NCBI GenBank assembly: GCA_037445875.1
Contig: JBBIJR010000003.1
Span: forward strand, 13,109 to 77,108
Length of the DNA: 64,000 nt
Direction of reading: 5' to 3'
From: Bacteroidota bacterium
GTDB lineage: Bacteria > CLD3 > SB21
Below the pieces are notes generated by a model, which had not been told where the DNA came from, made no database searches, and worked only from the letters and a program-made list of their open reading frames with translations. The position numbers were made by a program, and so were the translations under genes. Below, piece after piece: positions 10,553 to 55,335 of this stretch (position 1 is the stretch's first letter; the number at the start of each line of letters is the position of its first letter).

Positions 10553-10772
10553 CCTTTCGCAGTCGCAGGTAGTCTCAAGTAGTCTCAAAATTTGAAGTGC
10601 CCTGTGCCGGGCCTTTATATTGCCTACGTTGATTTTTTAACGAGGCAAAATAAAAGCGATGGAAACTCCGGTCATAGAAAACGAAGAAGAATACGAAAAC
10701 TTGGATGTCGCCGAAGAAACACTTAAAACAAAAAGACCAATGAACATTGTTAACTGCTCATTGGTCAGTGTG

Positions 10773-11148
10773 CGGTGGAGACGACGGGAATTGAACCCGT
10801 GTCCGAGAATAAGCCACCTGAGATTTCTACGTGCGTAGCCCGCTTTGGGTTCTCGCTCCGGTATCGAAAGCGGACGAAAAGCGCCGGAGCCAGCTCGATG
10901 TCCCGACGAATCGGGTTCTCACCTCAGGCCTCCGAGCATTGGCCTTCGGCTAGTCTGTTTGAAATGACGCCCTGACCAACCCCGACAGACGAGAGTCAAC
11001 CAGAACGGACTGCAGAGTGTTACCTCTTAGGCAGCCAACGCGTAAGCGTTGTTGTTGTTTGTTTTTTCCCCGCTTGTTTAACGAGCACGCAGAGAAGCTC
11101 GGCACGCCGTCCCAGGACGCCTAGACCCGTCGAATCCAGTTCGTCCCC
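10773..11148 (-). ncRNA. ssrA: tmRNA (ssrA), about 376 nt, CCA not encoded
   Basis: Reverse complement gives 5' GGGGACGAACUGGAUUCGACGGG.. and 3' ..GGACACGGGUUCAAUUCCCGUCGUCUCCACC. Both are close matches to E. coli tmRNA ends (G3:U70 alanine identity pair preserved). Internal tag reading frame ..AAC AAC AAC AAC GCU UAC GCG UUG GCU GCC UAA (NNNNAYALAA stop). Confidence 0.85.
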
Positions 11149-35840: not shown

Positions 35841-35980
35841 GCGTCAGGGTTTCACACGCCGCTGTCCCTTTGAGGGGCGTATCTCCGCACCGCCTCGAGC
35901 GAGGTTCCGATGGTTGTTGAAATCGGTGTTCTTGTTCTTGTTTCCGTTCTATGCGCTTTTTTACTACTAAGGAGGAGGTC

Positions 35981-38272
35981 ATGAGAACCAGCCAACCAAC
36001 CTTACATGTGCGACCGGTGCCCGTATTCGTCCTGTTGGCGCTGGTTTCCGGAATGCTCTACGCCGGCGATCCCAAGCCTTCCGCGGTCTGGACGTTCAAA
36101 GGAAAGAAATCCATCAACAACTACTCCGAGGTCTGCGGCGGGAAATACTTCTGGACCCGGGAGGGCAACTATGCAGCCGTCATCAACAATGCCGACGGCT
36201 CAACCAGATGGGAAGCCGAACTGAAGGACCTCCAGGAAAAGGCGTTCAGCCTGATATGGAACGATAATATGTTCGTCTTCTGCACGAAGAAGGAGATGGT
36301 GGCCCTGGACCTGGAAACCGGCTCGGAGAAGTATCGCATTGCCCTCGGCAGCGAGGTCGATCCGACGGACTACAACGGGTACCTCAACACCTCCAACGGT
36401 GTGCTGATCGTGTACAAGGACAACGTCGGGTTCTACGACGTTACGAACGGCAAGCAGTTGTGGCTCCGCAAAGACAAGGGCATGACGGTCGACAACTACG
36501 ATCTGATGAAAAACGGCCATTTCATCGGCCTTTACGGCAACGGCGTGGCCATCATCGACTACAAGACCGGCCAGTCCCTCTGGAGTTCGCCGGAACCGCT
36601 GTATTCGGACCTCAAGTACCAGTATTACACGTTTACCAACTCCGAGGGCACCGGCGGTTCGGTGTTGTTCTTCATGAAGAAGTCGACCGCGCTGGTGAGT
36701 TGGGACGGCAAACCGCTGTGGTCCATTGCGGCGCGGGGCAGCGAGGAGCGCGGCGGCCAGAAAAAAGCCGGCGAATGCCAGCAGCGAGTGGGCAACACCC
36801 TGACCGTCTTCCTCGAGAAGCAGATCGTAGGCCTGCACGGCTTGACGGGCGCCGAAGGATGGCGCGAAGACGTGAAAGATGAAGACGATATCGCCGAAGC
36901 CGACGTTTATGCGATCCAGGATGATCAGAAGAACGACCGCTTCGGACTGATCACCGTCAACGGTGCCCTGCTGAACTTCGACGCCCAAACGGGCCAGAAG
37001 CTGTGGCGCACGCCCGATGAGACGTTCGTCGGCCAGATGTGCAAAATACTCCCGATCCAGGGCGATGAGTTCCTCTGCATCTCCGGCAAGCGGGCCTTTC
37101 TGATGACGAACGGCCTGCTTGGCGTCCACATGTACCGGATCAACATGAAGGACGGGAAAATCCTGTGGCACAACCAGAGCCGCGCCATGTGGAGCAACGC
37201 CATCGGTAATTCCGCCAAAACGACGTACGACGGCGTGGCGTCCGGTCCATACCTTTTTCCCGAGATCGATCGAACGGTGCTCGTGACCAACACCGGCGTC
37301 AACGTCTTCACCCTGTCGGACGGCAAACTGCTGAAGGACGGAAAGTGGATGCAGAATGAGGTCGGCAACTGGAAGAAGCACGAGTACACCGTCGACAAGA
37401 CCAACATGGTGCTGAGCGTCTCGCTGACTCCTCCGGTCGGATTGAGCGCCGCGGCGCTCGGTCCGCTCGGTCTGCCGTTCGGCGGTTTCAAGCTCCTTAA
37501 GAGTACCATCATGATCAATCGAAGCGCAGCGCCGGCCATTGTCGGAGGGACGCTATTCTTCTCGGGCGACGACAAGATCTTCGCTTATGATCTGGCCACC
37601 GGCAAGGAGAAATGGGCGGCCAAGGCCCGCGGACCGGTCGTAGCCATGCTCGTGAAAGAGGGTGTTGTGTACGCGATGACGGGTTTGTACATTGACTCGA
37701 ATATCCTGTTCGGTCTGCAGGACGAAAAACCGATGGTCTACCACAACAAGGGCGATTTCGGGTTCATCGCCTTCGACGCCGCGACCGGAAAGGAACTCTG
37801 GAAGTTCCAGGAATTCGAGGCCAACGATCCCGTCTTCCTGACCGGCATCATCGTGGACAAGGCCGACCTCGAAAAGAAGGAAAAGAGCGAGTGCAATCTG
37901 AAGAAGCTCAAGGTCGGGCAGATCTTCAACATGGTGCAGCGCCCGAACTACGTCTTCTTCTGGGGTGTGGACGGGCTGGCGGGCGTGCAGTACGGATCGG
38001 ACCAACCGTGCAAGTCCAACTGGCGTGTCAAGGGTGACGTGAAGAAAGCCCGTCAGACGTTCAGTCTCACGGACGACCGCTACATGCCTCCGGTCGTGCT
38101 GTTCGACAACACCTTCCTGGCCGACTTCGGCGGAGACGTGTATTACTTCGACGAGGCCGCCCAGCAGCTGAAATGGAAGGCCGACGGCGGCGAGCGCACA
38201 CTGTATTCGACGCACAACCGGCTCATCTACGTGATGGATGGAAAAGAATTGACGGCTTATAGATTGGATTAA
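35981..38272 (+). CDS. Secreted PQQ-like (BamB-like) beta-propeller repeat protein
   Basis: ORF 35951..38272. AGGAGG RBS before MRTSQP. Signal peptide. Repeated G.LWS/W motifs (KQLWLR, QSLWSS, KPLWS, QKLWRT, KILWHN, KELWKF, QLKWKA). Confidence 0.7.
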   Translation: MRTSQPTLHVRPVPVFVLLALVSGMLYAGDPKPSAVWTFKGKKSINNYSEVCGGKYFWTREGNYAAVINNADGSTRWEAELKDLQEKAFSLIWNDNMFVFCTKKEMVALDLETGSEKYRIALGSEVDPTDYNGYLNTSNGVLIVYKDNVGFYDVTNGKQLWLRKDKGMTVDNYDLMKNGHFIGLYGNGVAIIDYKTGQSLWSSPEPLYSDLKYQYYTFTNSEGTGGSVLFFMKKSTALVSWDGKPLWSIAARGSEERGGQKKAGECQQRVGNTLTVFLEKQIVGLHGLTGAEGWREDVKDEDDIAEADVYAIQDDQKNDRFGLITVNGALLNFDAQTGQKLWRTPDETFVGQMCKILPIQGDEFLCISGKRAFLMTNGLLGVHMYRINMKDGKILWHNQSRAMWSNAIGNSAKTTYDGVASGPYLFPEIDRTVLVTNTGVNVFTLSDGKLLKDGKWMQNEVGNWKKHEYTVDKTNMVLSVSLTPPVGLSAAALGPLGLPFGGFKLLKSTIMINRSAAPAIVGGTLFFSGDDKIFAYDLATGKEKWAAKARGPVVAMLVKEGVVYAMTGLYIDSNILFGLQDEKPMVYHNKGDFGFIAFDAATGKELWKFQEFEANDPVFLTGIIVDKADLEKKEKSECNLKKLKVGQIFNMVQRPNYVFFWGVDGLAGVQYGSDQPCKSNWRVKGDVKKARQTFSLTDDRYMPPVVLFDNTFLADFGGDVYYFDEAAQQLKWKADGGERTLYSTHNRLIYVMDGKELTAYRLD

Positions 38273-41049: not shown

Positions 41050-42159
41050 GTGAGCAAACGAACTGTTCTGACCCTGACTTGTTGCCTCTTGGCAGCCTGG
41101 AATATCCGAGCCCAGGATCTGAAAGGTGCCATCGAGAATCTCGCAACGGACGCGGCCAGAGCGTACGTCCGGCCGGTGGTGTCCGGCTTCGGCAGCGATC
41201 TTAACACGGGTTGGTTTCATCGCGCGCCAAAAGCGCAGAGGCTGGGATTCAACGTGGAAGTCGGCTTTGTGGCGATGGGTACGCTGTTCAACAAGAAGGA
41301 CAAGCGCTTCTCCGTGACGAAGAATCTGACAATCACGGAAGACGAGGCGACTCGTTTAGCCACGACGTTTGTTGAAAACGATCCCACACTCAGCCAGTTG
41401 ACAGGTACTTTCAAGGACCAGGCGATTGCCACCATTGCAAACGAGATCGCCGATCAGATCGTCAATGTCACGATAGCCGGCGCGACCTTTATCGGGGACA
41501 AAGAGGATACCGTGAAATTGACCATCAACAACGACATCTTGTTCACCTACAACAGTCAATCCTACACGATGCAGAACGGTCAAGAGACCAACCTCGGTGT
41601 GGGCGGATTGCTGGACGCGCCCGTTGTTCCTTTGCTTGCGCCTCAACTTACGGTTGGAACTGTCATGGGCTCTCAGCTGACGATACGCTACGTGCCAACG
41701 GTTAAACTCAAAGATGAGGTGGGAAAAGTCAACTACTTCGGCATTGGCATTCAACACAATCCGGGCGTGTGGTTCCCGCAGCCGCTCCCGGTCGACCTCG
41801 CCGTTGCTTTCTACACGCAGAATCTCAAGCAGGGGAAGCTGTTTGAGGCAACGGCTACGGCCTACGGGATCACAGCCAGCAAGCAGTTCGGTTTCCGGTT
41901 CCTCAACCTCACTCCGTACGCCGGATTCCTGCTCGAGTCGTCGGAAATGAAGTTCAAGTATGACTACTCTTACACCGTACCCGATGGTAGCGGAGGTCTG
42001 GCGACTGAAACGGCCAAGATTTCCTTTACCGAGAAAGGCAAGAACAAGAACCGCATCACGATCGGCACCAATATTCGCTTTCTCATGGTCAACATAAACG
42101 CGGACTACAGTTTTGCGAAGAACTCAGCCTATAGCGCGGGGATAAACTTCGCCCTCTAA
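41050..42159 (+). CDS. Secreted hypothetical protein with a signal peptide
   Basis: GTG start. MSKRTVLTLTCCLLAAWNIRAQD. No recognisable domain. Confidence 0.5.
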   Translation: MSKRTVLTLTCCLLAAWNIRAQDLKGAIENLATDAARAYVRPVVSGFGSDLNTGWFHRAPKAQRLGFNVEVGFVAMGTLFNKKDKRFSVTKNLTITEDEATRLATTFVENDPTLSQLTGTFKDQAIATIANEIADQIVNVTIAGATFIGDKEDTVKLTINNDILFTYNSQSYTMQNGQETNLGVGGLLDAPVVPLLAPQLTVGTVMGSQLTIRYVPTVKLKDEVGKVNYFGIGIQHNPGVWFPQPLPVDLAVAFYTQNLKQGKLFEATATAYGITASKQFGFRFLNLTPYAGFLLESSEMKFKYDYSYTVPDGSGGLATETAKISFTEKGKNKNRITIGTNIRFLMVNINADYSFAKNSAYSAGINFAL

Positions 42160-46613: not shown

Positions 46614-47960
46614 TTGCTTATTTTCTCATTCGGGTGGGTGAAGAGCCGATCAACCGTTTTCAGGCGTCTCCTGGGATGCCTCGCGGCTGCGGCGCTGGTT
46701 GTACCGGCCGCCTGTGAAGACGGTGTCAACGATGTCGGCATCGAGGGATTTGACCGGGAGGGAGCGTCGGGCACGTTCGTTAGGGACACGCTGTACGTGT
46801 CGGCCCTGCTCAACGATACGTCGTTCGTGGATTCGATCACGACGTCGAGCGCCCGGCGGCTCTATCTCGGATCCGTCGACCAGTACGACTTCAGGATAGT
46901 CATGAAGTTTACCATGTCTTCCGTCGTCGAAAGCGTTCAGGTCCAGCAGGCTCGCATCGAAATGGTTCCGTCCGCATCCTACGGGGAAGGGACTACCCTG
47001 ACCGCGCGAATAAGGACCCTTCGCAAGAATTGGACCGAGTCGGACGTGTTGTGGACAAGATTCGATCCCGATGGTGACGGCGGGCCGGACGTATGGGACG
47101 TGCCGGTGGCCCGGAGCGATTCCGGCGGTACGCTGTGGGTCTGGACCGTGCCGCGGGACACGGTCCAGCAGTGGGTATACGCTCGCAAGGACACAAACCG
47201 GAAGAACTTCGGAATGATCATCGATTTCCAGTCCGGGGCGAACTTTGTGCAGCAGTTTTACAGCGCCAGCGTGGTCAATTCCAGTAATGTGCCCGACCCG
47301 GACAAAGCTCCGCGCCTCGTGTTCAGTTACACGAAACTGGATGGTGATGTTGTGACAGAGGACTCGATCAAGATCTATCCCGCGATCACGCGGACGAGCA
47401 CCGGGTCACAGGTGTATGACGGAGGGCGGAGCGGATACCTGTACCGCGACCGGGCGGCCCAGCCGGCCGACGAGTTGTGGGTGGGCGGGGGTGTCGTGTA
47501 TCATTCGTTCCTCTATTTCAACGCGGAAACCGTCCCCGTAACGTCCACCGTCACGAGCGCTCAGCTGGTGATGCCGCTGGACCCTGCGGGGCGATACCGG
47601 TACTTGCCGTCGGATTCGGTACACCTGCAGGCGGCACGCCTGACGTCGGGCCCCTCCACCTGGCAGGCGGGCAGCGTCACGATCCGAAGCGACGACGCCT
47701 TTTATCTCCTGAACAACGCGACCAAGCGGGCACGCCTGACGGGCCTCATCGCCAATGACACGCTCCGCGTGACCATCACCGAGCAGATGCAGGAATGGGT
47801 GTCCTCGCCCTCGTCCAACTACGGACTCCGGCTGTTCGGGGCGGATGAGCTCTCGGGAGATTTCAACCGTCTATACCGTGTCCGATTCAAACGATCGAAC
47901 ACCGATTCGCTTGGATCGCCGCAGGTCATACTCCAGTACACGAGGCCGCCGGACAACTAG
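46614..47960 (+). CDS. Hypothetical lipoprotein
   Basis: Lipobox VVPAAC. No confident domain assignment. Confidence 0.5.
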   Translation: MLIFSFGWVKSRSTVFRRLLGCLAAAALVVPAACEDGVNDVGIEGFDREGASGTFVRDTLYVSALLNDTSFVDSITTSSARRLYLGSVDQYDFRIVMKFTMSSVVESVQVQQARIEMVPSASYGEGTTLTARIRTLRKNWTESDVLWTRFDPDGDGGPDVWDVPVARSDSGGTLWVWTVPRDTVQQWVYARKDTNRKNFGMIIDFQSGANFVQQFYSASVVNSSNVPDPDKAPRLVFSYTKLDGDVVTEDSIKIYPAITRTSTGSQVYDGGRSGYLYRDRAAQPADELWVGGGVVYHSFLYFNAETVPVTSTVTSAQLVMPLDPAGRYRYLPSDSVHLQAARLTSGPSTWQAGSVTIRSDDAFYLLNNATKRARLTGLIANDTLRVTITEQMQEWVSSPSSNYGLRLFGADELSGDFNRLYRVRFKRSNTDSLGSPQVILQYTRPPDN

Positions 47961-47962
47961 CT

Positions 47963-49174
47963 ATGCATAAGGTGATGTTTACATCGTGGATTCTCTTCGG
48001 AGCCTTGGTGCCTCTGAGTGCCGCCCGCGCGGGGGGTTCGTCGTATTCCTCCAACGGCTACGGACTTACGGACCTTCACGCCAATACGCGCTCCACCGGG
48101 ATGGGGCGACTCGGTATCGCCGTGCCGAGCGGTTCGTCGATCAATCTCTTCAATCCTGCGGCCCTCATGGGCCTGAACCTGGTCCGGATGGACCTTGCCA
48201 TGTACTACGAACAAGTGCAGACCAAGACGTCGGCCGCCACAGCCAATTCCAACACCGTGAATGTCAACCACGGGGCCTTTGCGATACCGTTCGGGACGAG
48301 ACTGGCGATGGCTCTGAGCGTTTCACGCTATACAAAGCTCGGTTACGACTTCGCCGTTCGGGCCGTTACAGAGGACGGCGTTGCATATGAAGAGCGTTTC
48401 ACGGGATCGGGCGGAGCGCAGGTGGTTGGATTTACCGTGGCGGGCAAGCCTGCGGACCACTGGAGTGCCGGCCTGAGCCTTCAATACGTACTGGGGAGCA
48501 TCACTCGCGCGTGGAACGTAACGTGGGACTCTCCGGATTTCGTGGCCACCAACGACGTGCGCGAGGAGCACTTCTACGGGATGCGGTGGACGCTGGGAGG
48601 CTTGTATCAGCAGCCGCGCTATACGGTCGGCGGTTTCCTCGCCGTCAACAACCGGCTGACCAGCGATCTTGATTACAGTCGATCGGCGTCCGATACAACC
48701 GAATCGCGCAGCCGGGGACTGGATTTTCCGGCGGAATTTGGTCTCGGCGTGACTTATCTTCCCTCACCGAGGTGGCTGGCGGGAATGGACTTTGTTTTCA
48801 CAGGTTGGAAATCCTTTGAGATTGCCGGGGAGGATCCCGGTTATCGTAACACGTTTAGAATCAGCGTAGGAGCCGAAAGGGCACCGAGCGCGGAACTATC
48901 GGCCCACTATTTGCAGACATTGCACTATAGAATAGGCGCATACTACCAGACGCTATACGCACGCAATCCCAGCGGCCATCACGCCGGTGAGCTGTTCCTT
49001 ACGTGGGGCATGGGTATACCGGTAGCGCGCGGACGGCACACGCTGGATCTTGGGTTCGAGTTGGGAACACGGGGAACGATCTCCACCAACGAGGTCCGTG
49101 AAACCGTGTTCAGGCTTACCCTTGCCGTATCCGGGGGCGAGCGCTGGTTCCAGGTCAGAAAAAGAAAACCGTAA
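47963..49174 (+). CDS. Outer-membrane beta-barrel protein, PorV/FadL-like
   Basis: Signal peptide. N-terminal G.G..A..NPAAL-type motif (TGMGRLGIAVPSGSSINLFNPAALM). Amphipathic strands. Confidence 0.55.
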   Translation: MHKVMFTSWILFGALVPLSAARAGGSSYSSNGYGLTDLHANTRSTGMGRLGIAVPSGSSINLFNPAALMGLNLVRMDLAMYYEQVQTKTSAATANSNTVNVNHGAFAIPFGTRLAMALSVSRYTKLGYDFAVRAVTEDGVAYEERFTGSGGAQVVGFTVAGKPADHWSAGLSLQYVLGSITRAWNVTWDSPDFVATNDVREEHFYGMRWTLGGLYQQPRYTVGGFLAVNNRLTSDLDYSRSASDTTESRSRGLDFPAEFGLGVTYLPSPRWLAGMDFVFTGWKSFEIAGEDPGYRNTFRISVGAERAPSAELSAHYLQTLHYRIGAYYQTLYARNPSGHHAGELFLTWGMGIPVARGRHTLDLGFELGTRGTISTNEVRETVFRLTLAVSGGERWFQVRKRKP

Positions 49175-49201: not shown

Positions 49202-50440
49202 ATGAAGAAGCTGAACGGATTGATTCTCTCACTCGTCGTCACGATTGCCGCAGCCTCCCACGGACAGAATGTGAAAGAAGGTACGCCGGAGTTCGAGTGT
49301 ATCAAGACCTGGAGTACGGCCAGTGAGTACTACAAGAACGGGGAATTCCAGAATTCGATCCCATATTTTTGGACGGCGATGACTTGCGATATGACGCTGC
49401 GTCCGCAAAAAGAGAAGCGGCTGTTTACCAGTGTCTACGACAAACTGTCCGATTCCTACTTTCAGTTGCAGCAGATCGACAGCGCCGTTGCCGTCCTGAA
49501 ACTGGGTTACCGCGACCTGGAGGACAACGGCTACATGTACAAGATCGGCGAAATGTTCCACCGCAGCCTCAAGCAGTACGATTCGGCCGCCGTCTACTAC
49601 CGCCGTTACTACGACATGTCCGGCTCTGTGGAGGAATTGAAGCGCATCGCCGGCATGTGGATCGAAGCGGCCAAGTATCAGGAAGCGCTGAAGGTTTACG
49701 AAGAGTACCTGAAGAAGAACCCGACGGACCAGGAAACGTGGGTATACGTGCTGGATTCGTTTAAGAGTTTCTACATCAAGTATAACGGACGGGAAAAATG
49801 GCTGACGGCGTGCGACACGTTCGCCGTCTTCTTTCCTACGGCCTCCAAGGAATTCTACATCGGTGAGAAATTGGACGATCTTCTGAAAAAGGGTGAATAC
49901 GAAAAGGCCATCCGCACCGCCGATGAGATACTGGCCGTCGATGCGAACAGCAAGAGCGCGTGGATGAAAAAAGGCAAGGCACTGGATGCGCTTCGTAAGG
50001 GTAAGGAGGCCATCGAGTGCTATGAAAAGGCCTACGCGATCGATCCGCAGGATGCCGACTTGATATGCGATCTCGCACGCCTTTATCTGGACCAGGGCCA
50101 ACTGGCACGGACGTGGTCTCTGTGTTTGAAGGCCAAAGACATCAAGAAATTCGGCCGGCCGTACTTTCTGATCGGCGAAGCGATTCGCGACGGCATTCGG
50201 CGGTGTTCGGGCAACACGCTGACCATGCCGGCCAAGGAAGCCTATCTGGTCGCGGCCAAGTATTACGACATGGCGGCGGCCTATCCGGACGTGGACGTGA
50301 ACGCGCGCACGATGGCGGGCACGAGCCGCCAGAACGGCCCGACGAAATCCGACTGTTTCATGGGCAGCCTGGGTAAACTGAAGAACGACCCGTGTTACGA
50401 GTGGATGCCCGATCGCGATTATGCCAGTCCGTGCAAATGA
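49202..50440 (+). CDS. Secreted TPR-repeat protein
   Basis: Signal peptide and multiple TPR-like helices. Confidence 0.6.
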   Translation: MKKLNGLILSLVVTIAAASHGQNVKEGTPEFECIKTWSTASEYYKNGEFQNSIPYFWTAMTCDMTLRPQKEKRLFTSVYDKLSDSYFQLQQIDSAVAVLKLGYRDLEDNGYMYKIGEMFHRSLKQYDSAAVYYRRYYDMSGSVEELKRIAGMWIEAAKYQEALKVYEEYLKKNPTDQETWVYVLDSFKSFYIKYNGREKWLTACDTFAVFFPTASKEFYIGEKLDDLLKKGEYEKAIRTADEILAVDANSKSAWMKKGKALDALRKGKEAIECYEKAYAIDPQDADLICDLARLYLDQGQLARTWSLCLKAKDIKKFGRPYFLIGEAIRDGIRRCSGNTLTMPAKEAYLVAAKYYDMAAAYPDVDVNARTMAGTSRQNGPTKSDCFMGSLGKLKNDPCYEWMPDRDYASPCK

Positions 50441-50509
50441 GACCGGGTGCCGGCACGATTTACTTGTGTGCCGGATCGGCAATCAATATCGACCAAAGGA
50501 GGGCTAACC

Positions 50510-51331
50510 TTGAGAACATCCATCCTGATCCTGATAGGGGCCGCCGGTCTCTTGATACGGCCTGCAAGTACCCGCTCGCAAGAGATCGAAACCAAAGGCG
50601 GTTCGGAATCGACGGTGGCAAAGATCGAGCAGCGTCACCTGATCGACGTTCCGACCGCAGGGGTGATGGGCCGGGGACAGTATGAAGTCGGTATGCGGCT
50701 GTTCGATAACGGCGGTGTATTGGCACAGATCAACGTCGGCATCACCGATCGCTTCATGATCGGTATCGCCTACGGTGGAGAGCGGATCGTAGGTTCGGGC
50801 GAGATCAACTTTAACCCGCTGCCCGGCGTGGATGTACGTTACCGTATGATCGATGAAACCGAGGTCGGTCCGGCTGTCTCGGTCGGTTTCAGTTCTCAGG
50901 GATACGGGCCGTTCGTCAAGAATATTCGCACGGCGACCGACACAACGGAAGTGGATCGGTACACGCACAAGTCCCGCGGGCTGTTCGCCGCCGCGAGCAA
51001 GAACTACCGCTTTCTGGGGAACCTCGGCCTGCACGGCGGCATCAGCTGGGCTGCGCATGAAAAGAAAGACAAAGACAACCAGCCGACGGTGTTTGTCGGC
51101 ATGGACAAGAGTATCAACAACGAGCTCTCCGTCGTCGGGGAGTACGACCTGGCGCTGAACGACGACAAAGACCTGATTGGCCACGGGCGGGGATACCTCA
51201 ACGTGGGCGCCAAGCTCAATTTTGGCAACGAGGTCCTGTTTGAACTTATGATGCGGGACCTCTTGAACAACTCAAAGGACTTTGGCAAGTTTGCACGAGA
51301 GGTTCGGTTGTCCATCGTGCGCGCGTTCTGA
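50510..51331 (+). CDS. Secreted hypothetical protein, possibly a small outer-membrane barrel
   Basis: Inside ORF 50447..51331. AAGGAGG RBS, then TTG start (LRTSILILIGAAGLLIRPAS). Confidence 0.45.
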   Translation: MRTSILILIGAAGLLIRPASTRSQEIETKGGSESTVAKIEQRHLIDVPTAGVMGRGQYEVGMRLFDNGGVLAQINVGITDRFMIGIAYGGERIVGSGEINFNPLPGVDVRYRMIDETEVGPAVSVGFSSQGYGPFVKNIRTATDTTEVDRYTHKSRGLFAAASKNYRFLGNLGLHGGISWAAHEKKDKDNQPTVFVGMDKSINNELSVVGEYDLALNDDKDLIGHGRGYLNVGAKLNFGNEVLFELMMRDLLNNSKDFGKFAREVRLSIVRAF

Positions 51332-51422: not shown

Positions 51423-52379
51423 ATGAAGATTCGAGCGTATTCATGGCTCATGGCCTGCGTTGTCACCGCCTTCGCAGGCTTTGCCGTCTCCGGTTGTTAT
51501 ACGGTTTTGAAACAATCGAATGAGTACTATCAGGAGTTCGACGACGGGTCCGGCGAGTACGCGGCCGATGCGGAAGAGGCCGTGGAGGATTCGGTAGTGG
51601 AAGGGGAAGAAACCGATGAGGATCAACCCCAGACGACCATCTACAATCGGTACTATTACGGTTACCATCCGTGGTCCTATCCCGGTTTCGGCTACTACTA
51701 TTCACCTTACCGTTGGACCGTCGCGTTCGGATGGACGTATTGGCCGCCCTATTATTACGGCTACTACGATCCATGGTGGGATTACTATTACTGGGGCAAC
51801 TGTGGTTATCCGCGGTACTGGTGGCACGGGGGATGGCAGGGCCACGGCGGCCTTACTTACAATGTCCAACGGAATTACGGAGTGCGCCAGTACCGGACCC
51901 GGAGTTTCAATCCGGTGCCGGTCGGAGGATCGATATCCAGCGGCTCATCCTCGTCGTCCGGCTCAACGAAAGCAGGACAAACCTCACGCCGAACCTACAA
52001 GAACGCCGAAGGCAAGAGATCCGTCCGTTCGAAAGGCGGCAAAGCCGTTCGCGGCGACGGTAAAGGTTCCTCCACTCGACGGAAGGTCCGCGATGGAGAA
52101 GGCGTGAAGAACGAACCACGCACACGACCCAAGGACGGCCAGTCCGGGTCTCAGGGCCGCCGGCAGCCAAGGGGGGATACGGACAAGCCGAAGCGCAGTT
52201 CTCGTATCAGCTACGACTATGAATCGTTTTCAGGGTCCGCATACCGGACCGAATCGGTGAGTCCGTTCGCTACCCGTCCCTACGATAGCGTCGTCCGAAC
52301 GCCGTTCGTGGATCGTTCGACTTCAACCTCAACAGAATCCGGAGGCTCCGGTACGAGCCGTCGTGAGACCAAACGCTAG
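51423..52379 (+). CDS. Lipoprotein with an acidic linker, an extreme Tyr/Trp/Pro/Gly-rich aromatic segment, and a basic R/K/G/S-rich tail
   Basis: Lipobox FAVSGC. ..YYYGYHPWSYPGFGYYYSPYRW..WPPYYYGYYDPWWDYYYWGNCGYPRYWWHGGWQGHGG.. Confidence 0.55.
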   Translation: MKIRAYSWLMACVVTAFAGFAVSGCYTVLKQSNEYYQEFDDGSGEYAADAEEAVEDSVVEGEETDEDQPQTTIYNRYYYGYHPWSYPGFGYYYSPYRWTVAFGWTYWPPYYYGYYDPWWDYYYWGNCGYPRYWWHGGWQGHGGLTYNVQRNYGVRQYRTRSFNPVPVGGSISSGSSSSSGSTKAGQTSRRTYKNAEGKRSVRSKGGKAVRGDGKGSSTRRKVRDGEGVKNEPRTRPKDGQSGSQGRRQPRGDTDKPKRSSRISYDYESFSGSAYRTESVSPFATRPYDSVVRTPFVDRSTSTSTESGGSGTSRRETKR

Positions 52380-52387
52380 GCCTGACC

Positions 52388-52936
52388 GTGAAAACTCTTC
52401 TCACGCTGGGGTTGCCCGCCTGGTTGGTATTGGTCCTGGCGCCCGGCTGTTATACGGTTATCCGTCACACGGCCCCACCCACGGCCGAAACGACGGATGA
52501 TATCGAGCAAGAAGAAGCGACCGTAGACCATGCGAGCGCCTGTCTGAATTGCCACGAGGGAGCCTTCGACGGTTACGATTACGCCTTCCATCCCCCGCGG
52601 GAACACGTGCAAGGATTCGACCGATGGTCCGACTACTACGGATACGTGACTCCGTGGTGGGTGGTTTACGCGGAAGGTCCAGCAGTCGGAGATACTGAAG
52701 AGGAAGGCGCGCCCTTGCAGAGGAACTACGGTCGACGGAGGAGCGCTGCCCAAACGGAAACAACGGCGACGGGAGCCGGGACCTACCAAGCCGCGGGCGG
52801 GGGGCAAACCGGCGGCGGATCCACTTACGTGGCCAGTTCCGATACATCGCGGCCCCACAACAACGATACGATTAACAAGAGCGGCACGAGCGGAAAGCAG
52901 CGCGACTATGGAACGCGCCGCACGAAGAAAAAGTGA
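52388..52936 (+). CDS. Shorter paralog of the upstream lipoprotein (same GCYTV(L/I) lipobox context, acidic then aromatic then basic layout)
   Basis: Lipobox LAPGCYTVIRHT versus VSGCYTVLKQS in the neighbour. ..DYYGYVTPWWVVY.. NYGRRR... Basic tail. Confidence 0.55.
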   Translation: MKTLLTLGLPAWLVLVLAPGCYTVIRHTAPPTAETTDDIEQEEATVDHASACLNCHEGAFDGYDYAFHPPREHVQGFDRWSDYYGYVTPWWVVYAEGPAVGDTEEEGAPLQRNYGRRRSAAQTETTATGAGTYQAAGGGQTGGGSTYVASSDTSRPHNNDTINKSGTSGKQRDYGTRRTKKK

Positions 52937-52955: not shown

Positions 52956-54287
52956 ATGATCAGGCGGATGATTGCAGCGGTTATCGCCATTGGAGTACTC
53001 TCAGGGGGACGGACGTTCGGACAATCGGAAGAGGATGCCGTGCGTCCTTTCCTGCATGAATTCGGTCCCGGGGCGCGGGCGCTGGCCATGGGTGGGGCGT
53101 ACGCGGCGCTGGCCGAGGACTATACGGCCGTCTACTGGAATCCGGCCGGTCTGGCGCAAATTCGGAAGATGGAATTCGCCGCCAGCCTGTCTCACACGCG
53201 GATCAACAACGAAATCGGATACTACGGTACGGTGGCCGACAACACGAACGGTTTCACAAAGTTCAACTCGGTGGGCATGGTCTTCCCGGTGCCGACCTAC
53301 CGGGGAAGTCTGGTGTTTGCGGTCGGGTACAATCGTGTCGGGCATTACGACGATTTTAGCGAGGTGATCGGGTGGGCCCCCCTGTCCACCGGAGGGCGTT
53401 TCTATCAGAGCGAGCGGACCACCGTCGACGGGGGCCTCAATCAGTGGGCCTTCTCCGGCGCCGTGGATCTGACGCGGTCCCTGTCCGTTGGGGCCACACT
53501 GAACCTGCTGGTGGGCGGCGACAACACGGCCATCACCTATCTGGAAGACGACCAGGAGGATGTGTTGACGTCCGAAATCCGTACGGTCGATATCGGCGTC
53601 GACAAGGATTTCACGGGTGTAAGCCTCAAAGCGGGCGCTCTGGGCAAACCGACGGAGAATCTCCGGATCGCCGTCACCGCGACTACCCCGCAGCGCGTCG
53701 TCGTGGAGGAACGATCCACACTCTACGACTACCTGAGATACGATGACGGGGTTGAAGACCCCATCAGCGACGATTCATACCGGAAGTACACGATATACTC
53801 GCCCTGGAAATTCGAGATCGGCGCATCCTACAAGTATCGATTAGCCACCGTGTCGTCAACGCTGGAATTCTTGGACTGGACAGAAAGCGAGTTCCGCTCG
53901 AATATCGTGGATGATGAAGGCCGCGACATCGATGGCGATCTGAACGCCAGTATCCGCAAAAACTATCGAAGCGTCGTCAATGTGAGGATGGGCGGAGAAG
54001 TGCTGGTGCCTGCGCTTGGGGTTAAGGCGATGGCGGGCTATGCCACGCAGACGTCCCCCCTGAAGACGTCGGTCGAATCGGTCAATAGCAATCGCCAGTA
54101 TCTCTCCGGAGGCGTCAGTTTTCTCCTTGACAAGCAGGTGAAGATCGATCTGGCTTACCAATACGGTTGGTGGAAACAATCCACCGTCGACGATCTCTTA
54201 GGACAGGACGATCTCAATCGCTATTACAGTACCAGCGAGAAGATCCGAACGAACAGACTGCTGTTGAGCCTGAGTTATCGGTTCTGA
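52956..54287 (+). CDS. Outer-membrane beta-barrel protein, PorV/FadL-like, with C-terminal Phe
   Basis: Inside ORF 52908..54287. Start MIRRMIAAVIAIGVLSG. ARALAMGGAYAALAEDYTAVYWNPAGLA motif. Ends ..LSLSYRF. Confidence 0.6.
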   Translation: MIRRMIAAVIAIGVLSGGRTFGQSEEDAVRPFLHEFGPGARALAMGGAYAALAEDYTAVYWNPAGLAQIRKMEFAASLSHTRINNEIGYYGTVADNTNGFTKFNSVGMVFPVPTYRGSLVFAVGYNRVGHYDDFSEVIGWAPLSTGGRFYQSERTTVDGGLNQWAFSGAVDLTRSLSVGATLNLLVGGDNTAITYLEDDQEDVLTSEIRTVDIGVDKDFTGVSLKAGALGKPTENLRIAVTATTPQRVVVEERSTLYDYLRYDDGVEDPISDDSYRKYTIYSPWKFEIGASYKYRLATVSSTLEFLDWTESEFRSNIVDDEGRDIDGDLNASIRKNYRSVVNVRMGGEVLVPALGVKAMAGYATQTSPLKTSVESVNSNRQYLSGGVSFLLDKQVKIDLAYQYGWWKQSTVDDLLGQDDLNRYYSTSEKIRTNRLLLSLSYRF

Positions 54288-54324: not shown

Positions 54325-55335
54325 ATGAGTTGTCCCCTGTCTGTGCGGATCGGGGGACTGCTTTTGATCCTCGGTGCGAGCGCCGCCCAGGCCCAACAAA
54401 CCCTCGATACGCGATTTCCCCTCCTCCGATCGAATTTCTCCGCCATCATTTCGGATTCCGCCCTCATCGAGGCAACTCGTTCGATCCGCGGAGAACGGCT
54501 GGCCGTTCTCATCGACACGCTGGCCAGCGATTCGTTTGCGGGACGGGCCACGGGAAGTGCGGGATACGATCGCGCCGCCCGTTGGGTCGCGGAAAAACTG
54601 ATCCGAGCCGGAGTACGGCCTCTCCCGTCGTCGGAAAGCTTGTTCCAACAGTTCAAGTTGCCCACGGACGATGTTCGATCGCGCGTCCACCTGGATGACC
54701 CGGGCACCGACTCGATCCTGACCGCAAACGTCGTGGGTTGGCTGCCGGGTTCCGACGACAGTCTCTCGCGCGAGTTCATTGCCGTAACGGCGCACCTGGA
54801 CCACCTGGGCCGGAAGGGCGATTCCGTCTTTTATGGGGCAAACGACAATTCGAGCGGTGTTTCTGTGATGCTTACGGTGGCCCAGATCATGGCCGACCAC
54901 GCCGTGCTCCACCGCCGCTCGATCCTGTTTGCGGCATTTAGCGGCGAAGAGGTCGGCCTCAAGGGGTCTGAATACTTCGTGCACCATGCCCCCATTCCGC
55001 TGTCCTCGATCGGGCTGCTCATCAATCTCGATCTGGTGGGCTCCGGAAAGGAGGGGCTCATGCTGCAGGGCCTCGATGTGTTTCCAGGCCACTGGAGACG
55101 GTTCGAGGAAATCAATGGAGGATTGGGTTTCGAATTGAAGACCAGGCCGAACTCGCCGAATTCCGATCACTACCACTTTCACATGGCCGGCGTTCCTGCG
55201 GTCTTCATCTACGCGTACAACGGTACCGTACCGTACCATTCCGTACTCGATCGACCGGAGCGGCTGGATCGAGACGTTCTGGAAAACGTGGCTCGCTTTG
55301 TACTCCTGTCGACCTGGAGCTTCGCCAATCGCTAG
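54325..55335 (+). CDS. M28-family peptidase (aminopeptidase), secreted
   Basis: AHLDHLG..GANDNSSG..FSGEEVGLKGS metal-binding pattern. Confidence 0.8.
   Translation: MSCPLSVRIGGLLLILGASAAQAQQTLDTRFPLLRSNFSAIISDSALIEATRSIRGERLAVLIDTLASDSFAGRATGSAGYDRAARWVAEKLIRAGVRPLPSSESLFQQFKLPTDDVRSRVHLDDPGTDSILTANVVGWLPGSDDSLSREFIAVTAHLDHLGRKGDSVFYGANDNSSGVSVMLTVAQIMADHAVLHRRSILFAAFSGEEVGLKGSEYFVHHAPIPLSSIGLLINLDLVGSGKEGLMLQGLDVFPGHWRRFEEINGGLGFELKTRPNSPNSDHYHFHMAGVPAVFIYAYNGTVPYHSVLDRPERLDRDVLENVARFVLLSTWSFANR

What the first reader, a model, noticed from the sequence alone, without database searches (positions are those of the whole stretch)
51423..52936. Tandem paralogous lipoproteins with an extreme Tyr/Trp/Pro/Gly aromatic block and a basic tail, an apparently new family
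Both begin with a near-identical lipobox context (..GCYTVLKQS / ..GCYTVIRHT), followed by a D/E-rich linker. Then comes an aromatic low-complexity block: in the first, YYYGYHPWSYPGFGYYYSPYRWTVAFGWTYWPPYYYGYYDPWWDYYYWGNCGYPRYWWHGGWQGHGG; in the second, DYYGYVTPWWVVY. Both share an NYG(V/R)R motif and an R/K/G/S/T-rich C-terminal tail. The composition is reminiscent of Tyr-rich adhesive or cross-linking and phase-separating sequences, plus a polyanion-binding tail. The genes sit directly upstream of a PorV/FadL-like barrel, and the second paralog's stop region overlaps the barrel ORF.
Basis: seen in the sequence. Interest (0 to 1): 0.6.

Follow-up and report, generated by a model that had tools for sequence, protein, structure and literature searches.

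The report
Aromatic disordered lipoproteins partnering BamG-like barrel
Two adjacent genes encode real, lipid-anchored, largely disordered proteins of an undescribed family that occurs in several FCB-group bacterial phyla and almost always lies just upstream of one type of outer-membrane barrel gene, so proteins and barrel probably form one unit whose function is still unknown.

Summary
Both + strand ORFs (51423-52379 and 52388-52936) are real genes. Lipo1 is under purifying selection in its frame; the aromatic block has pN 0.012 against pS 0.254.

The family has no Pfam, NCBIfam or PDB relative, and AlphaFold2 predicts the mature protein to be disordered. It is not rare: a narrow HMM search found only 17 representatives, but searching through the barrel gene showed much more.
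- Lipoproteins starting Cys-Tyr-Thr, followed by an acidic linker, a W/Y/F block and a basic tail, lie directly upstream of orthologous barrels.
- This holds in 12/12 in-lineage loci, 6/6 loci from other FCB lineages (KSB1, Calditrichia, Fidelibacterota, Zhuqueibacterota and two unclassified) and 35/38 testable metagenome loci.
- It holds in 0/15 loci that carry other FadL/PorV-like barrels.

There are two subfamilies. Type A (lipo1) is long with a strongly basic tail.

The barrel is FadL-family and structurally closest to BamG, not PorV. Its likely start is 52956, so the reported overlap with lipo2 is probably an artefact.

My best reading is that these are barrel-docked accessory lipoproteins, analogous to BamH-BamG. 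Their topology and function are unresolved.

The parts
51423..52379 (+). lipo1: type A 'CYT' lipoprotein, 318 aa, including the stop codon
   Evidence: The ORF is. Purifying selection acts in this frame: codon-position differences are 26/17/56 and omega is about 0.22. Homologues were found.
51423..51497 (+). lipo1 signal peptide and lipobox (AVSG-C25)
   Evidence: Read from the sequence. AlphaFold2 predicts a helix only at residues 7-31.
51495..51539 (+). Conserved lipidated N-terminus CYTVLKQSNEYYQEF (aa 25-39)
   Evidence: C-Y-T is invariant and S32, Y36 and F39 are invariant among in-lineage members. There are 3 synonymous and 0 non-synonymous differences from L001. C-Y-T is also present in 6/6 out-lineage proteins that were chosen by adjacency alone.
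51540..51641 (+). Acidic linker (aa 40-73)
   Evidence: The composition is 21% E and 12% D, and aa 26-73 has net charge -15. Length varies between homologues.
51642..51851 (+). Aromatic Y/W/G/P block (aa 74-143), with motifs NRYY, PW, RWxVxFGW, DPWW, YYYWGxCxYP
   Evidence: Composition is. The motifs are conserved. pS is 0.254 and pN is 0.012.
51867..51887 (+). QRNYGVR motif (aa 149-155), the first R-x-Y motif
   Evidence: R150 and R155 are invariant and G153 nearly so. The motif is enriched across the family.
51903..52376 (+). Basic S/R/G/T/K tail (aa 161-318) carrying repeated R-x-[YF] motifs
   Evidence: Net charge is +23 for aa 144-318. In-lineage tails hold 106 R-x-[YF] motifs against 32.6 expected, and in the most regular members they recur about every 28 residues. 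The tail evolves faster than the rest: pN 0.096 and pS 0.304.
52388..52936 (+). lipo2: type B 'CYT' lipoprotein, 182 aa, GTG start
   Evidence: The ORF is. There are 11 in-lineage orthologues at the same position, a Calditrichia orthologue and 18 from metagenomes.
52448..52468 (+). lipo2 lipid Cys21 and conserved CYTVIRH (His at +6)
   Evidence: His+6 is present in 28/31 type B proteins.
52541..52555 (+). CLNCH: a CxxCH motif (aa 52-56), a candidate heme c attachment site
   Evidence: The motif is present in 25/31 type B proteins, 21-37 residues after the lipid Cys. It co-varies with His+6 (Fisher p=0.0044, not corrected for phylogeny). There are weak NCBIfam hits to the cytochrome ExtN/ExtO region (E about 1e-3).
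52625..52669 (+). lipo2 aromatic segment WSDYYGYVTPWWVVY (aa 80-94)
   Evidence: W..YY...PWW is conserved in all 12 in-lineage orthologues.
52718..52741 (+). lipo2 QRNYGRRR motif (aa 111-118)
   Evidence: R-x-Y-G-x-R-R is conserved in all 12 in-lineage orthologues.
52898..52933 (+). lipo2 C-terminal second copy of the motif plus a basic end, QRDYGTRRTKKK
   Evidence: In the alignment of the 12 in-lineage orthologues the two Arg of the motif are invariant; Y/F-G lies between them in 11 of the 12 (L005 reads QRETSGRK). A K-rich end follows.
52956..54287 (+). Partner outer-membrane barrel, FadL family, BamG-like, 443 aa
   Evidence: Pfam Toluene_X scores 42.1 bits against a cutoff of 29.7. NCBIfam BamG scores 71.7 (cutoff 250) and PorV_fam 56.9 (cutoff 90). 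The AlphaFold2 model has pLDDT 88.9. The top Foldseek hit is BamG 9hiv_F, E 5.6e-20. Orthologues are 51-61% identical in-lineage and 33-38% in other FCB phyla.
46614..47960 (+). Context: BamH-like surface lipoprotein candidate (DNRLRE/CBM96 domain; the lipid Cys is followed by EDGVND). The start codon is uncertain.
   Evidence: NCBIfam DNRLRE_dom scores 70 bits against a cutoff of 34. [quoted passage not shown]
47963..49174 (+). Context: BamG orthologue
   Evidence: NCBIfam BamG scores 236.6 bits, just under the cutoff of 250. PDB matches are 9hiv_F at 8e-29 and 9n2d_B 'Bam G' at 2.6e-21.
49202..51331 (+). Context: a conserved TPR protein (49202-50440) and a conserved 294-aa protein ending ...VRAF (50447-51331; probably a small barrel, start uncertain)
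   Evidence: Pfam results are. Identity across loci is 52-70% for the TPR protein and 60-71% for the 294-aa protein.
54325..55335 (+). Context: M28 peptidase downstream, syntenic in-lineage
   Evidence: Pfam Peptidase_M28 at 1.8e-36. Synteny is shown.

Best explanation
Lipo1 and lipo2 are outer-membrane lipoproteins of an undescribed family with two branches, here called type A and type B 'CYT' lipoproteins.

**What they are.** The mature chains are intrinsically disordered. They carry a fixed order of short conserved elements:
1. a lipidated Cys-Tyr-Thr-hydrophobic N-terminus;
2. an acidic linker;
3. a Tyr/Trp/Pro/Gly block;
4. an R-x-[FYW]-[GD]-x-R motif;
5. a basic Ser/Arg/Gly-rich tail.

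**How they most likely work.** They act together with the FadL-family, BamG-like barrel encoded immediately downstream. I infer that the invariant lipidated N-terminal peptide docks on that barrel in the membrane, as the conserved N-terminus of BamH is wedged into BamG. The disordered acidic, aromatic and basic segments would then hang from the barrel as a multivalent, sticky tether. That tether would self-associate, or bind anionic envelope polymers such as LPS, peptidoglycan or phospholipid head groups. Type B probably also carries a covalently bound heme, ligated by the His of the CxxCH motif and by His+6.

**Shown here**
- The genes are real and under purifying selection.
- The family has a consistent motif architecture.
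- AlphaFold2 finds no confident fold.
- Gene adjacency to one barrel orthologue group is tight and specific across several FCB lineages.
- The barrel is structurally closest to BamG.
- CxxCH and His+6 co-vary.

**Inferred only**
- Physical docking on the barrel (my estimate about 0.6).
- Periplasmic rather than surface orientation (about 0.6, because the Bacteroidota surface-export signal is absent).
- Polyanion binding or self-association by the tail (about 0.4).
- Heme binding by type B (about 0.5).
For: - **Real genes.** The window and L001 are 94.5% identical over 4.7 kb. Lipo1 differences fall 26/17/56 by codon position, with omega about 0.22. By region, the aromatic block has pS 0.254 and pN 0.012, and CYT..EF has 3 synonymous and 0 non-synonymous changes.
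- **Family.** An exhaustive HMM search gave 17 representatives sharing the same motif order.
- **Coupling to the barrel.** Synteny lipo1-lipo2-barrel holds in 12 independent in-lineage loci (L003-L015); lipo2 and the barrel are cut off by the contig end in L008. The gene directly upstream of the barrel orthologue is a CYT lipoprotein in 6/6 loci from other FCB lineages, chosen only through the barrel. The same is true of 35/38 testable metagenome loci with a strong barrel match, against 0/15 loci with weak (other-family) barrel matches. Gene spacing in the window is 8 nt and 19 nt.
- **Barrel identity.** Pfam FadL is above its cutoff. The AlphaFold2 model has pLDDT 88.9. The best structural matches are BamG from B. 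thetaiotaomicron and F. johnsoniae (E 5.6e-20 and 5.9e-16, TM 0.61-0.70), ahead of FadL/TodX and far ahead of PorV (TM 0.38).
[quoted passage not shown] The BamH lipid tail lies in a groove on BamG (PMC12611786).
- **Disorder.** AlphaFold2 with a 15-sequence alignment gives mean pLDDT 41.9, with no secondary structure outside the signal peptide.
- **Charge layout.** It is conserved across phyla: heads are acidic, and the last 80 residues of type A carry +7 to +23 in nearly all.
- **Heme site.** CxxCH occurs in 25/31 type B proteins, at 21-37 residues from the lipid Cys. All 25 also have His+6, and 3 of the 6 without CxxCH lack that His.
Against: - No physical evidence links the lipoproteins to the barrel; gene adjacency could reflect co-regulation alone.
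- No complex model could be computed with these tools.
- BamH-type partners are folded, carry the acidic surface-export signal and are surface-exposed. These proteins have no acidic residue in the first six positions after Cys in 45/50 type A and 29/31 type B. So the analogy does not fix the topology.
- Three of 38 barrel orthologues have no such upstream gene.
- CxxCH is missing from 6/31 type B proteins and from all type A proteins, so heme cannot be essential to the module.
- No cytochrome c domain model matches, and no cytochrome c maturation genes were seen in the window.
- In the metagenome set, invariance of C-Y-T is partly circular, because my detection regex required C[YF]T. It is independent only for the HMM-found, tblastn-found and adjacency-found sets.
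- AlphaFold2 disorder from a shallow alignment does not exclude folding on a partner.
Confidence: 0.45

Rival explanations
1. Periplasmic envelope staple, working like Braun's lipoprotein. The lipid anchor sits in the inner leaflet of the outer membrane. The long basic tail reaches and binds peptidoglycan or the inner membrane, covalently or not. The barrel is merely co-expressed.
For: - The Bacteroidota surface-export signal is absent, whereas the BamH-like neighbour has one (CEDGVND).
- The tails are strongly basic and long enough to span the periplasm.
- In-lineage C-termini such as GGRSYKK and GGRSYRK recall the KYRK end of E. coli Lpp, whose terminal Lys is cross-linked to peptidoglycan. 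That comparison is from memory and is a lead only.
- A TonB_C protein, another envelope-spanning component, lies just upstream in three of the six out-lineage loci (L017, L019, L020).
Against: - A C-terminal Lys is present in only 13/50 type A and 18/31 type B proteins; most end in Arg. Lpp-type covalent attachment therefore cannot be the general mechanism.
- No coiled coil or any helix is predicted.
- This reading does not explain the near-obligate, family-specific adjacency to one barrel orthologue group (35/38 against 0/15).
- It does not explain the invariant residues right next to the lipid anchor.
Confidence: 0.2
2. Envelope redox or cross-linking module. Type B is a membrane-anchored bis-His monoheme cytochrome c. 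The Tyr/Trp-rich type A chain is either its redox substrate, undergoing heme-catalysed dityrosine cross-linking into an envelope matrix, or a Tyr/Trp hole- or electron-hopping relay. The barrel anchors both.
For: - CxxCH is conserved in position in 25/31 type B proteins and co-varies with His+6 (p=0.0044).
- There are weak similarities to the heme-motif regions of ExtN/ExtO and a diheme cytochrome.
- The aromatic block (30% Tyr, 14% Trp) is under strong purifying selection.
- The module sits near Bat (aerotolerance-type) operon genes in several loci.
- Peroxidase-driven dityrosine formation and Tyr/Trp hole hopping are established chemistry (from my own knowledge).
Against: - Many loci have only type A with no CxxCH partner (L017, L019-L022, and many metagenome loci).
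- Some type B proteins lack CxxCH.
- No cytochrome fold or domain is detected, and there is no sign of a folded heme pocket. Lipo2's fold was not modelled; the AlphaFold2 disorder result is for lipo1 only.
- There is no direct evidence for heme, for cross-links or for electron transfer.
Confidence: 0.12
3. Surface-displayed sticky proteins exported through or by the barrel. The barrel acts as a dedicated flippase or anchor, in the manner of Slam or PorV. The aromatic and basic chain works outside the cell as an adhesin, a matrix component, or a binder of LPS or eDNA.
For: - FadL-like barrels of the FCB group are known to hold surface proteins: BamG-BamH, PorV with its cargo and PorU, PorQ-PorZ (PMC12578637 and PMC12611786).
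- The lipoproteins evolve faster than their neighbours (25-35% identity against 45-76% between loci). This is typical of exposed proteins, though also of disordered ones.
Against: - No acidic export signal follows the lipid Cys in 45/50 and 29/31 proteins. The rule was established only for Bacteroidota, however.
- The barrel model has an N-terminal helical hatch like FadL and BamG, which leaves little room for a translocating chain.
- The barrel resembles PorV only poorly.
Confidence: 0.18
4. Artefact: low-complexity ORFs miscalled as genes, with the true gene on the other strand or absent.
For: - The composition is extreme.
- Several overlapping ORFs exist in other frames and on the minus strand.
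- The word-index homologue searches found almost nothing.
Against: - Third-position excess and low pN/pS are seen in the + frame.
- Ordered motifs are conserved at 25-35% identity across phyla.
- Signal peptide plus lipobox is present in every member.
- Position and spacing are conserved.
Confidence: 0.01

Closest known systems
BamG-BamH (and the operonic BamG2-BamH2 pair) of the Bacteroidota BAM complex
   Same: A FadL-fold 14-strand barrel is paired with a lipoprotein whose N-terminus next to the lipid anchor is highly conserved. In the cryo-EM structures that N-terminus is wedged into the barrel (PMC12578637, PMC12611786). The barrel here is structurally closest to BamG. Barrel and lipoprotein are operonic, as in BamG2-BamH2. 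A genuine BamH-like/BamG pair lies 3.5 kb upstream in the same gene string.
   Different: The lipoproteins are predicted to be disordered, with no DNRLRE/CBM96-type fold. They have no acidic export signal and an entirely different sequence. The barrel scores far below the BamG family cutoff (71.7 against 250 bits). Outside this lineage the module is not next to bam genes.
RcsF threaded through OmpA/OmpC/OmpF (Enterobacteria)
   Same: A lipoprotein with a disordered, positively charged segment functions in intimate contact with an outer-membrane barrel and with LPS. This comparison is from my own knowledge, not from a tool result.
   Different: There is no sequence relation. RcsF has a folded signalling domain and uses general porins, not a dedicated FadL-like barrel with a hatch. 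It has no aromatic block.
Braun's lipoprotein Lpp
   Same: Both are small outer-membrane lipoproteins with a basic Tyr-containing C-terminus: in-lineage ends are ..RSYKK or ..RSYRK, and Lpp ends ..KYRK (from memory). Both could tether the envelope.
   Different: No coiled coil is predicted. The C-terminal Lys is not conserved. These proteins are much longer, disordered and linked to a barrel gene.
Tyr-rich extracellular loop 3 of Bacteroidota BamA
   Same: It is an unstructured Tyr/Gly/Asn-rich segment of unknown function attached to an outer-membrane barrel in the same superphylum: 12-13 Tyr in 38-39 residues, with no cryo-EM density (PMC12578637).
   Different: It is a loop of BamA itself, not a lipoprotein. 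It has no Trp/Pro-rich motifs, no acidic or basic flanks and no sequence similarity.
Lipoprotein c-type cytochromes (for lipo2, type B)
   Same: Both have a signal peptide, a lipobox and a CxxCH motif with a conserved candidate distal His.
   Different: Type B has a single motif in a chain with no match to any cytochrome domain model. The motif is absent from a fifth of members. Heme attachment is untested.

Membership tests
Bacterial lipoproteins (SPase II substrates) | N-terminal signal peptide ending in a lipobox [LVI][ASTVI][GAS]-C | tested here: met
   Lipo1 has ..FAVSG-C and lipo2 has ..VLAPG-C, which is slightly atypical because Pro is at -2. All homologues have a hydrophobic stretch followed by [GASTNP]-C.
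Bacterial lipoproteins (SPase II substrates) | Actual acylation and cleavage by Lgt/Lsp | not testable with these tools
   This needs globomycin sensitivity, palmitate labelling or mass spectrometry.
BamH (Bacteroidota BAM surface lipoprotein) | DNRLRE/CBM96-like carbohydrate-binding fold | tested here: not met
   There is no Pfam or NCBIfam hit for lipo1, lipo2 or 15 homologues. AlphaFold2 gives no fold for lipo1. The neighbour at 46614-47960 does have the domain.
BamH (Bacteroidota BAM surface lipoprotein) | Acidic lipoprotein export signal: at least 2 Asp/Glu within the six residues after the lipid Cys | tested here: not met
   There are no acidic residues in 45/50 type A and 29/31 type B proteins. 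The rule is taken from PMC12578637.
Braun lipoprotein Lpp | C-terminal Lys for cross-linking to peptidoglycan | tested here: not met
   The last residue is Lys in 13/50 type A and 18/31 type B proteins; Arg is commoner in type A. Lipo1 ends ..ETKR and lipo2 ends ..TKKK.
Braun lipoprotein Lpp | Trimeric alpha-helical coiled coil | tested here: not met
   No helix is predicted in the mature lipo1 chain.
c-type cytochromes (lipo2 only) | CxxCH heme attachment motif | tested here: met
   CLNCH is at aa 52-56. The motif is conserved in 25/31 type B members.
c-type cytochromes (lipo2 only) | Recognisable cytochrome c domain, and covalently bound heme | tested here: inconclusive
   No Pfam cytochrome family matches. 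There are only weak NCBIfam hits (ExtN/ExtO, E about 1e-3, 18 bits against a cutoff of 200). Heme itself cannot be tested with these tools.
OMPP1/FadL/TodX family (the barrel at 52956-54287) | Pfam PF03349 above its gathering score, and a 14-strand barrel with an N-terminal hatch containing the NPA motif | tested here: met
   The score is 42.1 bits against 29.7. The sequence has YWNPAGLA. The AlphaFold2 model has pLDDT 88.9, and Foldseek matches FadL/TodX at E about 1e-15.
BamG family (the barrel at 52956-54287) | NCBIfam NF053685 at or above 250 bits | tested here: not met
   The score is 71.7 bits. The fold is nevertheless closest to BamG. The true BamG orthologue is the gene at 47963-49174 (236.6 bits; PDB matches).
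PorV/PorQ family (the barrel at 52956-54287) | NCBIfam NF033709 at or above 90 bits, and structural similarity to PorV | tested here: not met
   The score is 56.9 bits and covers only residues 47-121. PorV chain 8gl6_F gives TM 0.38 and E 2.4e-6.
T9SS cargo proteins | C-terminal Por_Secre_tail sorting domain | tested here: not met
   No such Pfam hit was found in lipo1, lipo2 or their homologues.

The most novel reading that the evidence does not exclude
The module is a previously unrecognised envelope redox or cross-linking system of FCB-group bacteria. Type B would be a lipid-anchored bis-His monoheme cytochrome c. It would act on the Tyr/Trp-rich disordered type A chain, either through dityrosine-type cross-linking into a protective envelope matrix or through Tyr/Trp-mediated charge relay. 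Both chains would be held on a dedicated BamG-like barrel.
Probability: 0.12. Interest if true: 0.85.

Novelty: new variant of a known kind. Interest (0 to 1): 0.6.

Why it matters
- **A gap in outer-membrane biology.** FadL-fold barrels that hold lipoproteins (BamG-BamH, PorV, PorQ) have only recently emerged as an organising principle of the FCB-group outer membrane. This finding adds a third, widespread and wholly unannotated barrel-lipoprotein module. It occurs in Bacteroidota-affiliated MAGs, KSB1, Calditrichia, Fidelibacterota and Zhuqueibacterota.
- **An unusual partner.** The partners are not folded domains but disordered chains with a strict acidic, aromatic and basic layout. One branch carries a heme-type motif.
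- **Immediate practical gain.** It gives a name and a diagnostic signature (lipid Cys-Tyr-Thr, a W/Y block, an R-x-F/Y-G/D-x-R motif, a basic tail, and a position upstream of one barrel orthologue group) to proteins now labelled 'hypothetical'.
- **Testable predictions.** It predicts barrel docking through the CYT peptide and heme binding by CxxCH plus His+6.
- **Wider interest if confirmed.** It would be a rare bacterial example of a conserved, selected, Tyr/Trp/Arg-rich disordered envelope protein.

Tried and rejected
- **Word-index homologue searches** with lipo1 and lipo2 found only near-identical sequences. On their own they would have suggested an orphan.
- **The exhaustive HMM search** with a three-sequence N-terminal profile found only 17 representatives. 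It badly underestimated the family; relatives in other phyla appeared only when I searched through the barrel.
- **The 17-sequence alignment A3** was too divergent for the locus scanner, so I used a tighter alignment, A4. One of its nine loci, L016 (Porphyromonadaceae), was a spurious low-complexity match with no synteny.
- **Family libraries and PDB.** Pfam, NCBIfam and PDB sequence or profile searches gave nothing for the lipoproteins.
- **AlphaFold2 of lipo1** gave no fold.
- **A coordinate error of mine.** I first used 52957 as the barrel start, which is out of frame. This gave misleadingly low identities and an error. It is corrected to 52956.
- **Radical SAM gene.** I considered that the upstream radical SAM gene might modify the aromatic block. 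It is the AmmeMemoRadiSam-type enzyme (TIGR04337, 243.5 bits), and it is not linked to the module outside this lineage, so I dropped the idea.
- **Lpp-like covalent attachment.** I considered this and downgraded it because the C-terminal Lys is not conserved.
- **Literature.** Full-text searches turned up no description of such lipoproteins.
- **Promoter and terminator scans** were uninformative.


Full report
**1. The observation**

Lipo1 (51423-52379, 318 aa) has a signal peptide ending AVSG-C25 and then YTVLKQS. Lipo2 (52388-52936, 182 aa, GTG start) has LAPG-C21 and then YTVIRHT.

Composition by segment matches the description:
- Lipo1 aa 26-73 has net charge -15.
- Lipo1 aa 74-143 is 30% Tyr, 14% Trp, 17% Gly and 10% Pro. 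Eight neighbouring genes average 4.5% Tyr and 2.0% Trp.
- Lipo1 aa 144-318 has net charge +23 and is rich in S, R, G, T and K.

The two proteins align at E=6e-7 with 28% identity, sharing GCYTV, YYGY..PWW and QRNYGxR.

One detail is doubtful. The overlap of the lipo2 stop with the barrel ORF exists only if the barrel starts at ATG 52908. NCBI's call for this gene (443 aa, P0018) and the orthologue alignments begin at ATG 52956, where the signal peptide starts. That leaves a 19-nt gap.

**2. They are real genes**

A metagenomic contig (L001) is 94.5% identical to the window over 4.7 kb.
- In the lipo1 frame the differences fall 26/17/56 on codon positions 1/2/3, with pN/pS about 0.22. Four neighbouring genes give 0.04-0.16.
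- The constraint lies where the sequence is strangest. The aromatic block has pS 0.254 but pN 0.012. The 15 residues after the lipid Cys have 3 synonymous and no non-synonymous changes. The basic tail is looser, at pN 0.096 and pS 0.304.

This excludes a miscalled low-complexity ORF or a minus-strand gene.

**3. Size of the family**

Word-index searches found only near-identical proteins. An exhaustive HMMER search of 1.84 billion representatives, using an N-terminal profile of lipo1, its close relative and lipo2, found 17 proteins.

The lipo1-type hits share an ordered set of motifs:
- G-C-Y-T-V-L-x-x-S-x-x-Y-Y-S-E-F
- an acidic linker of variable length
- N-R-Y-Y, then P-W, then W-x-V-x-x-G-Y
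- Y-Y-Y-W-G-G-C-Y-Y-P
- R-x-Y-G-x-R
- a basic tail

In these tails R-x-[YF] occurs 106 times against 32.6 expected from shuffling, and in the most regular members it recurs about every 28 residues. Many of these tails end ..GGRSY(K/R)K.

No member matches any Pfam or NCBIfam model or any PDB sequence. The one named database copy is 'hypothetical protein [bacterium]'.

**4. Gene context in the lineage**

Twelve independent loci (L003-L015) come from MAGs labelled 'Bacteroidota bacterium' or 'bacterium'. They keep one gene string:
1. AmmeMemoRadiSam radical SAM enzyme
2. a DNRLRE/CBM96 lipoprotein whose lipid Cys is followed by EDGVND (BamH-like)
3. a BamG orthologue (PDB 9hiv_F at 8e-29; 9n2d_B 'Bam G' at 2.6e-21)
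4. a 412-aa TPR protein
5. a conserved protein of about 290 aa ending ..VRAF
6. lipo1
7. lipo2
8. the FadL-family barrel
9. an M28 peptidase

Not every locus shows the whole string. Two lack a detectable TPR match, and L008 ends before lipo2 and the barrel. Neighbours are 45-76% identical between loci and the barrel 51-61%, but lipo1 and lipo2 are only 25-35% identical.

**5. The family is much wider than the HMM search suggested**

The barrel has full-length orthologues at 33-38% identity in MAGs named candidate division KSB1, Calditrichia, Fidelibacterota and Candidatus Oleimicrobiaceae (Zhuqueibacterota). All of these belong to the FCB group.

I looked up six such barrels, choosing them only by the barrel. 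In all six the gene immediately upstream encodes a lipoprotein with this layout:
- a start of G-C-Y-T-(Q/R)
- an acidic stretch
- a dense W/Y/F/P/D block, for example YDPWWYWWDPYWDYPW
- a (K/R)R-x-F/W-D-R-R-type motif
- a long Ser/Arg/Gly tail

The Calditrichia locus has both a long protein and a short one (CYTIMKHP.., CSDCH), in the same order as in the window.

A metagenome scan with the barrel alignment returned 80 loci. The results were as follows:

| Locus set | Loci with an upstream CYT lipoprotein |
|---|---|
| Strong barrel match (E<=1e-20) and at least 1 kb upstream | 35 of 38 |
| Weak barrel match (other FadL/PorV-like barrels), at least 3.7 kb upstream | 0 of 15 |

A positive here means a lipoprotein starting C-Y-T; in all but a few it also has at least 40% W+Y+F in some 50-residue window.

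One caveat applies. My detector required C[YF]T, so invariance of that tripeptide is independent evidence only in the HMM-, tblastn- and adjacency-derived sets.

**6. Two subfamilies**

| Feature | Type A (50 sequences, includes lipo1) | Type B (31 sequences, includes lipo2) |
|---|---|---|
| Median mature length | 291 aa | 167 aa |
| N-terminus | C-Y-T-(Q/V)-(L/F/V) | C-Y-T-[VILM]-[LIVFM]-x-H |
| His at +6 | not a feature | 28/31 |
| CxxCH | 0/50 | 25/31, at 21-37 residues after the lipid Cys |
| Other | strongly basic tail, usually ending in Arg | P-W-W-type block, an R-rich motif, a Lys/Arg C-terminus |

All 25 type B proteins with CxxCH have His+6. Three of the six without CxxCH also lack that His (Fisher p=0.0044, not corrected for phylogeny). 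Lipo2 has H27 and C52-L-N-C-H56.

This pattern is what a covalently attached heme with a second His ligand would produce. However, no cytochrome domain model matches, and the only similarity is weak, to the heme-motif regions of ExtN/ExtO.

Across the superfamily, R-x-[FYW]-[GD]-x(1-2)-R occurs in 33/50 type A and 16/31 type B proteins, against about 6 and 0.5 in shuffles.

**7. Structure**

- **Lipo1.** AlphaFold2 with a 15-sequence family alignment gives mean pLDDT 41.9. It predicts no secondary structure beyond the signal-peptide helix. The mature chain is therefore disordered, or folds only on a partner.
- **The barrel.** With 39 sequences the model has pLDDT 88.9, a long-stranded barrel and an N-terminal helical hatch. 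Its best PDB matches are BamG of B. thetaiotaomicron (E 5.6e-20, TM 0.65/0.70) and of F. johnsoniae, followed by FadL, TodX and CymD. PorV reaches only TM 0.38.
- **By sequence.** The barrel passes the Pfam FadL cutoff but is far below the NCBIfam cutoffs for BamG (71.7 against 250) and PorV (56.9 against 90).

**8. How it most likely works**

The two cryo-EM studies of Bacteroidota BAM show that BamG, a FadL-fold barrel, holds the lipoprotein BamH by BamH's highly conserved N-terminal residues. The triacyl anchor packs against the barrel. They also show that a paralogous BamG2-BamH2 pair is operonic (PMC12611786 and PMC12578637).

The module here has the same logic:
- a BamG-like barrel;
- one or two lipoprotein genes directly upstream;
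- the strongest conservation in the whole lipoprotein lying in the residues that adjoin the lipid anchor, which are aromatic and hydrophobic rather than charged.

I therefore think the CYT peptide docks on the barrel in the membrane, and the disordered chain hangs from it. This step is an inference from context and analogy, not a demonstrated interaction.

The orientation is open. The Bacteroidota surface-export rule asks for at least two acidic residues in the six after the Cys. These proteins have none in 74 of 81 cases, whereas the BamH-like neighbour in the same window has three. I lean towards a periplasmic orientation. The rule has not been established for KSB1, Calditrichota or the other phyla.

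The acidic, aromatic and basic order, with Tyr/Trp and Arg as dominant residues and Ser/Gly as spacers, suits multivalent electrostatic and cation-pi contacts. These could be self-association or binding to anionic envelope polymers. That is a compositional argument only.

**9. Rivals**

- **Lpp-like covalent staple.** This is weakened because a C-terminal Lys is present in only 13/50 type A and 18/31 type B proteins, and no coiled coil is predicted. A non-covalent periplasmic tether remains possible, but it leaves the barrel specificity unexplained.
- **Redox or cross-linking module** (heme-bearing type B acting on Tyr/Trp-rich type A). This is the most interesting reading that the data do not exclude. 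However, many loci have type A only, and a fifth of type B proteins lack CxxCH.
- **Surface display through or by the barrel.** This fits the habits of FCB FadL-like barrels. It conflicts with the missing export signal and the hatch-plugged barrel model.
- **Artefact.** This is refuted.

**10. Comparison with known systems, and novelty**

The closest known system in how it works is BamG-BamH, or BamG2-BamH2. The lipoproteins fail every BamH membership criterion I could test: fold, export signal and sequence. The barrel fails the BamG and PorV family cutoffs while meeting the FadL family definition. Neither gene should therefore be filed as a Bam or T9SS component.

The lipoprotein family itself is undescribed in Pfam, NCBIfam, the PDB and the searchable literature. 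I classify the finding as a new variant of a known kind: a barrel-lipoprotein module of the FCB outer membrane whose lipoprotein component is a new family of unusual character.

**11. Limits**

- There is no experimental evidence of any kind.
- No complex model could be computed.
- Taxon names come from MAG record titles.
- The association statistics are not corrected for shared ancestry.

Noticed in passing
window 46614-49174 (+): A DNRLRE/CBM96-domain lipoprotein with an acidic export-type signal (C-EDGVND) lies directly upstream of a BamG orthologue, only 2 nt apart. This looks like an operonic BamH-BamG pair. In F. johnsoniae the two genes lie at separate loci (Fjoh_0823 and Fjoh_1412). 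The pair is conserved in all 12 related loci.
   Followed up: partly
window 49202-51331 (+): Two strongly conserved genes of unknown role sit between bamG and lipo1. One is a 412-aa secreted TPR protein (52-70% identity across loci). The other is a protein of about 290 aa ending ..SIVRAF, with a weak YjbH-like match; it is possibly a small outer-membrane barrel. Its start codon is uncertain.
   Followed up: partly
L017, L019, L020 (TonB_C gene one or two genes upstream of the type A gene); L003, L005, L017, L020 (BatD and a BatE-like TPR/SH3 gene, plus BatA in L017 and L020); ComEC-type gene in L003, L005, L018, L021: Beyond the lipoprotein-barrel pair, the wider neighbourhood recurs across phyla: Bat-operon genes, a TonB C-terminal-domain protein, ComEC, and M28 or M49 peptidases. 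This suggests an old syntenic block, or a functional link to the Bat (aerotolerance-type) genes.
   Followed up: no
window 10773-11148 (-) and 8700-10700: A tmRNA gene (Rfam 154.7 bits; tag peptide GEKTNNNNAYALAA) lies next to a stretch of about 2 kb with lower G+C (0.52-0.54). That stretch holds only short fragmentary ORFs, including one that resembles an IS200/RAYT-type transposase (MPDHVHILLGLKPD..; recognised from memory, not scanned). It is probably the remnant of an element integrated at ssrA.
   Followed up: partly
window 30416-33565 (+): A 1049-aa protein combines Reg_prop beta-propeller repeats and a Y_Y_Y domain with a C-terminal Ser/Thr protein kinase domain. Those sensor modules usually precede histidine kinases, so this pairing is uncommon.
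   Followed up: no
window 35951-38272 (+) and 41050-42159 (+): There is a 773-aa protein with several PQQ/BamB-type beta-propeller matches and, nearby, a DUF6588 protein (160 bits) with a weak match to the Lsa36 surface-lipoprotein family. These are more envelope-related genes of unknown role in the same region.
   Followed up: no
in-lineage type A tails (e.g. L003 8001-8891, P0007, L013): The basic tails carry R-x-[YF]-[KRN] motifs about every 28 residues and often end GGRSY(K/R)K. This looks like a degenerate repeat of a short linear motif. The out-lineage tails are instead Ser/Arg runs without this periodicity.
   Followed up: partly
L048, L053, L055: Three metagenome loci with good matches to the barrel (E 1e-45 to 6e-37) have no aromatic-rich ORF on the same strand within 1.8 kb upstream. 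These are exceptions to the pairing and remain unexplained.
   Followed up: partly
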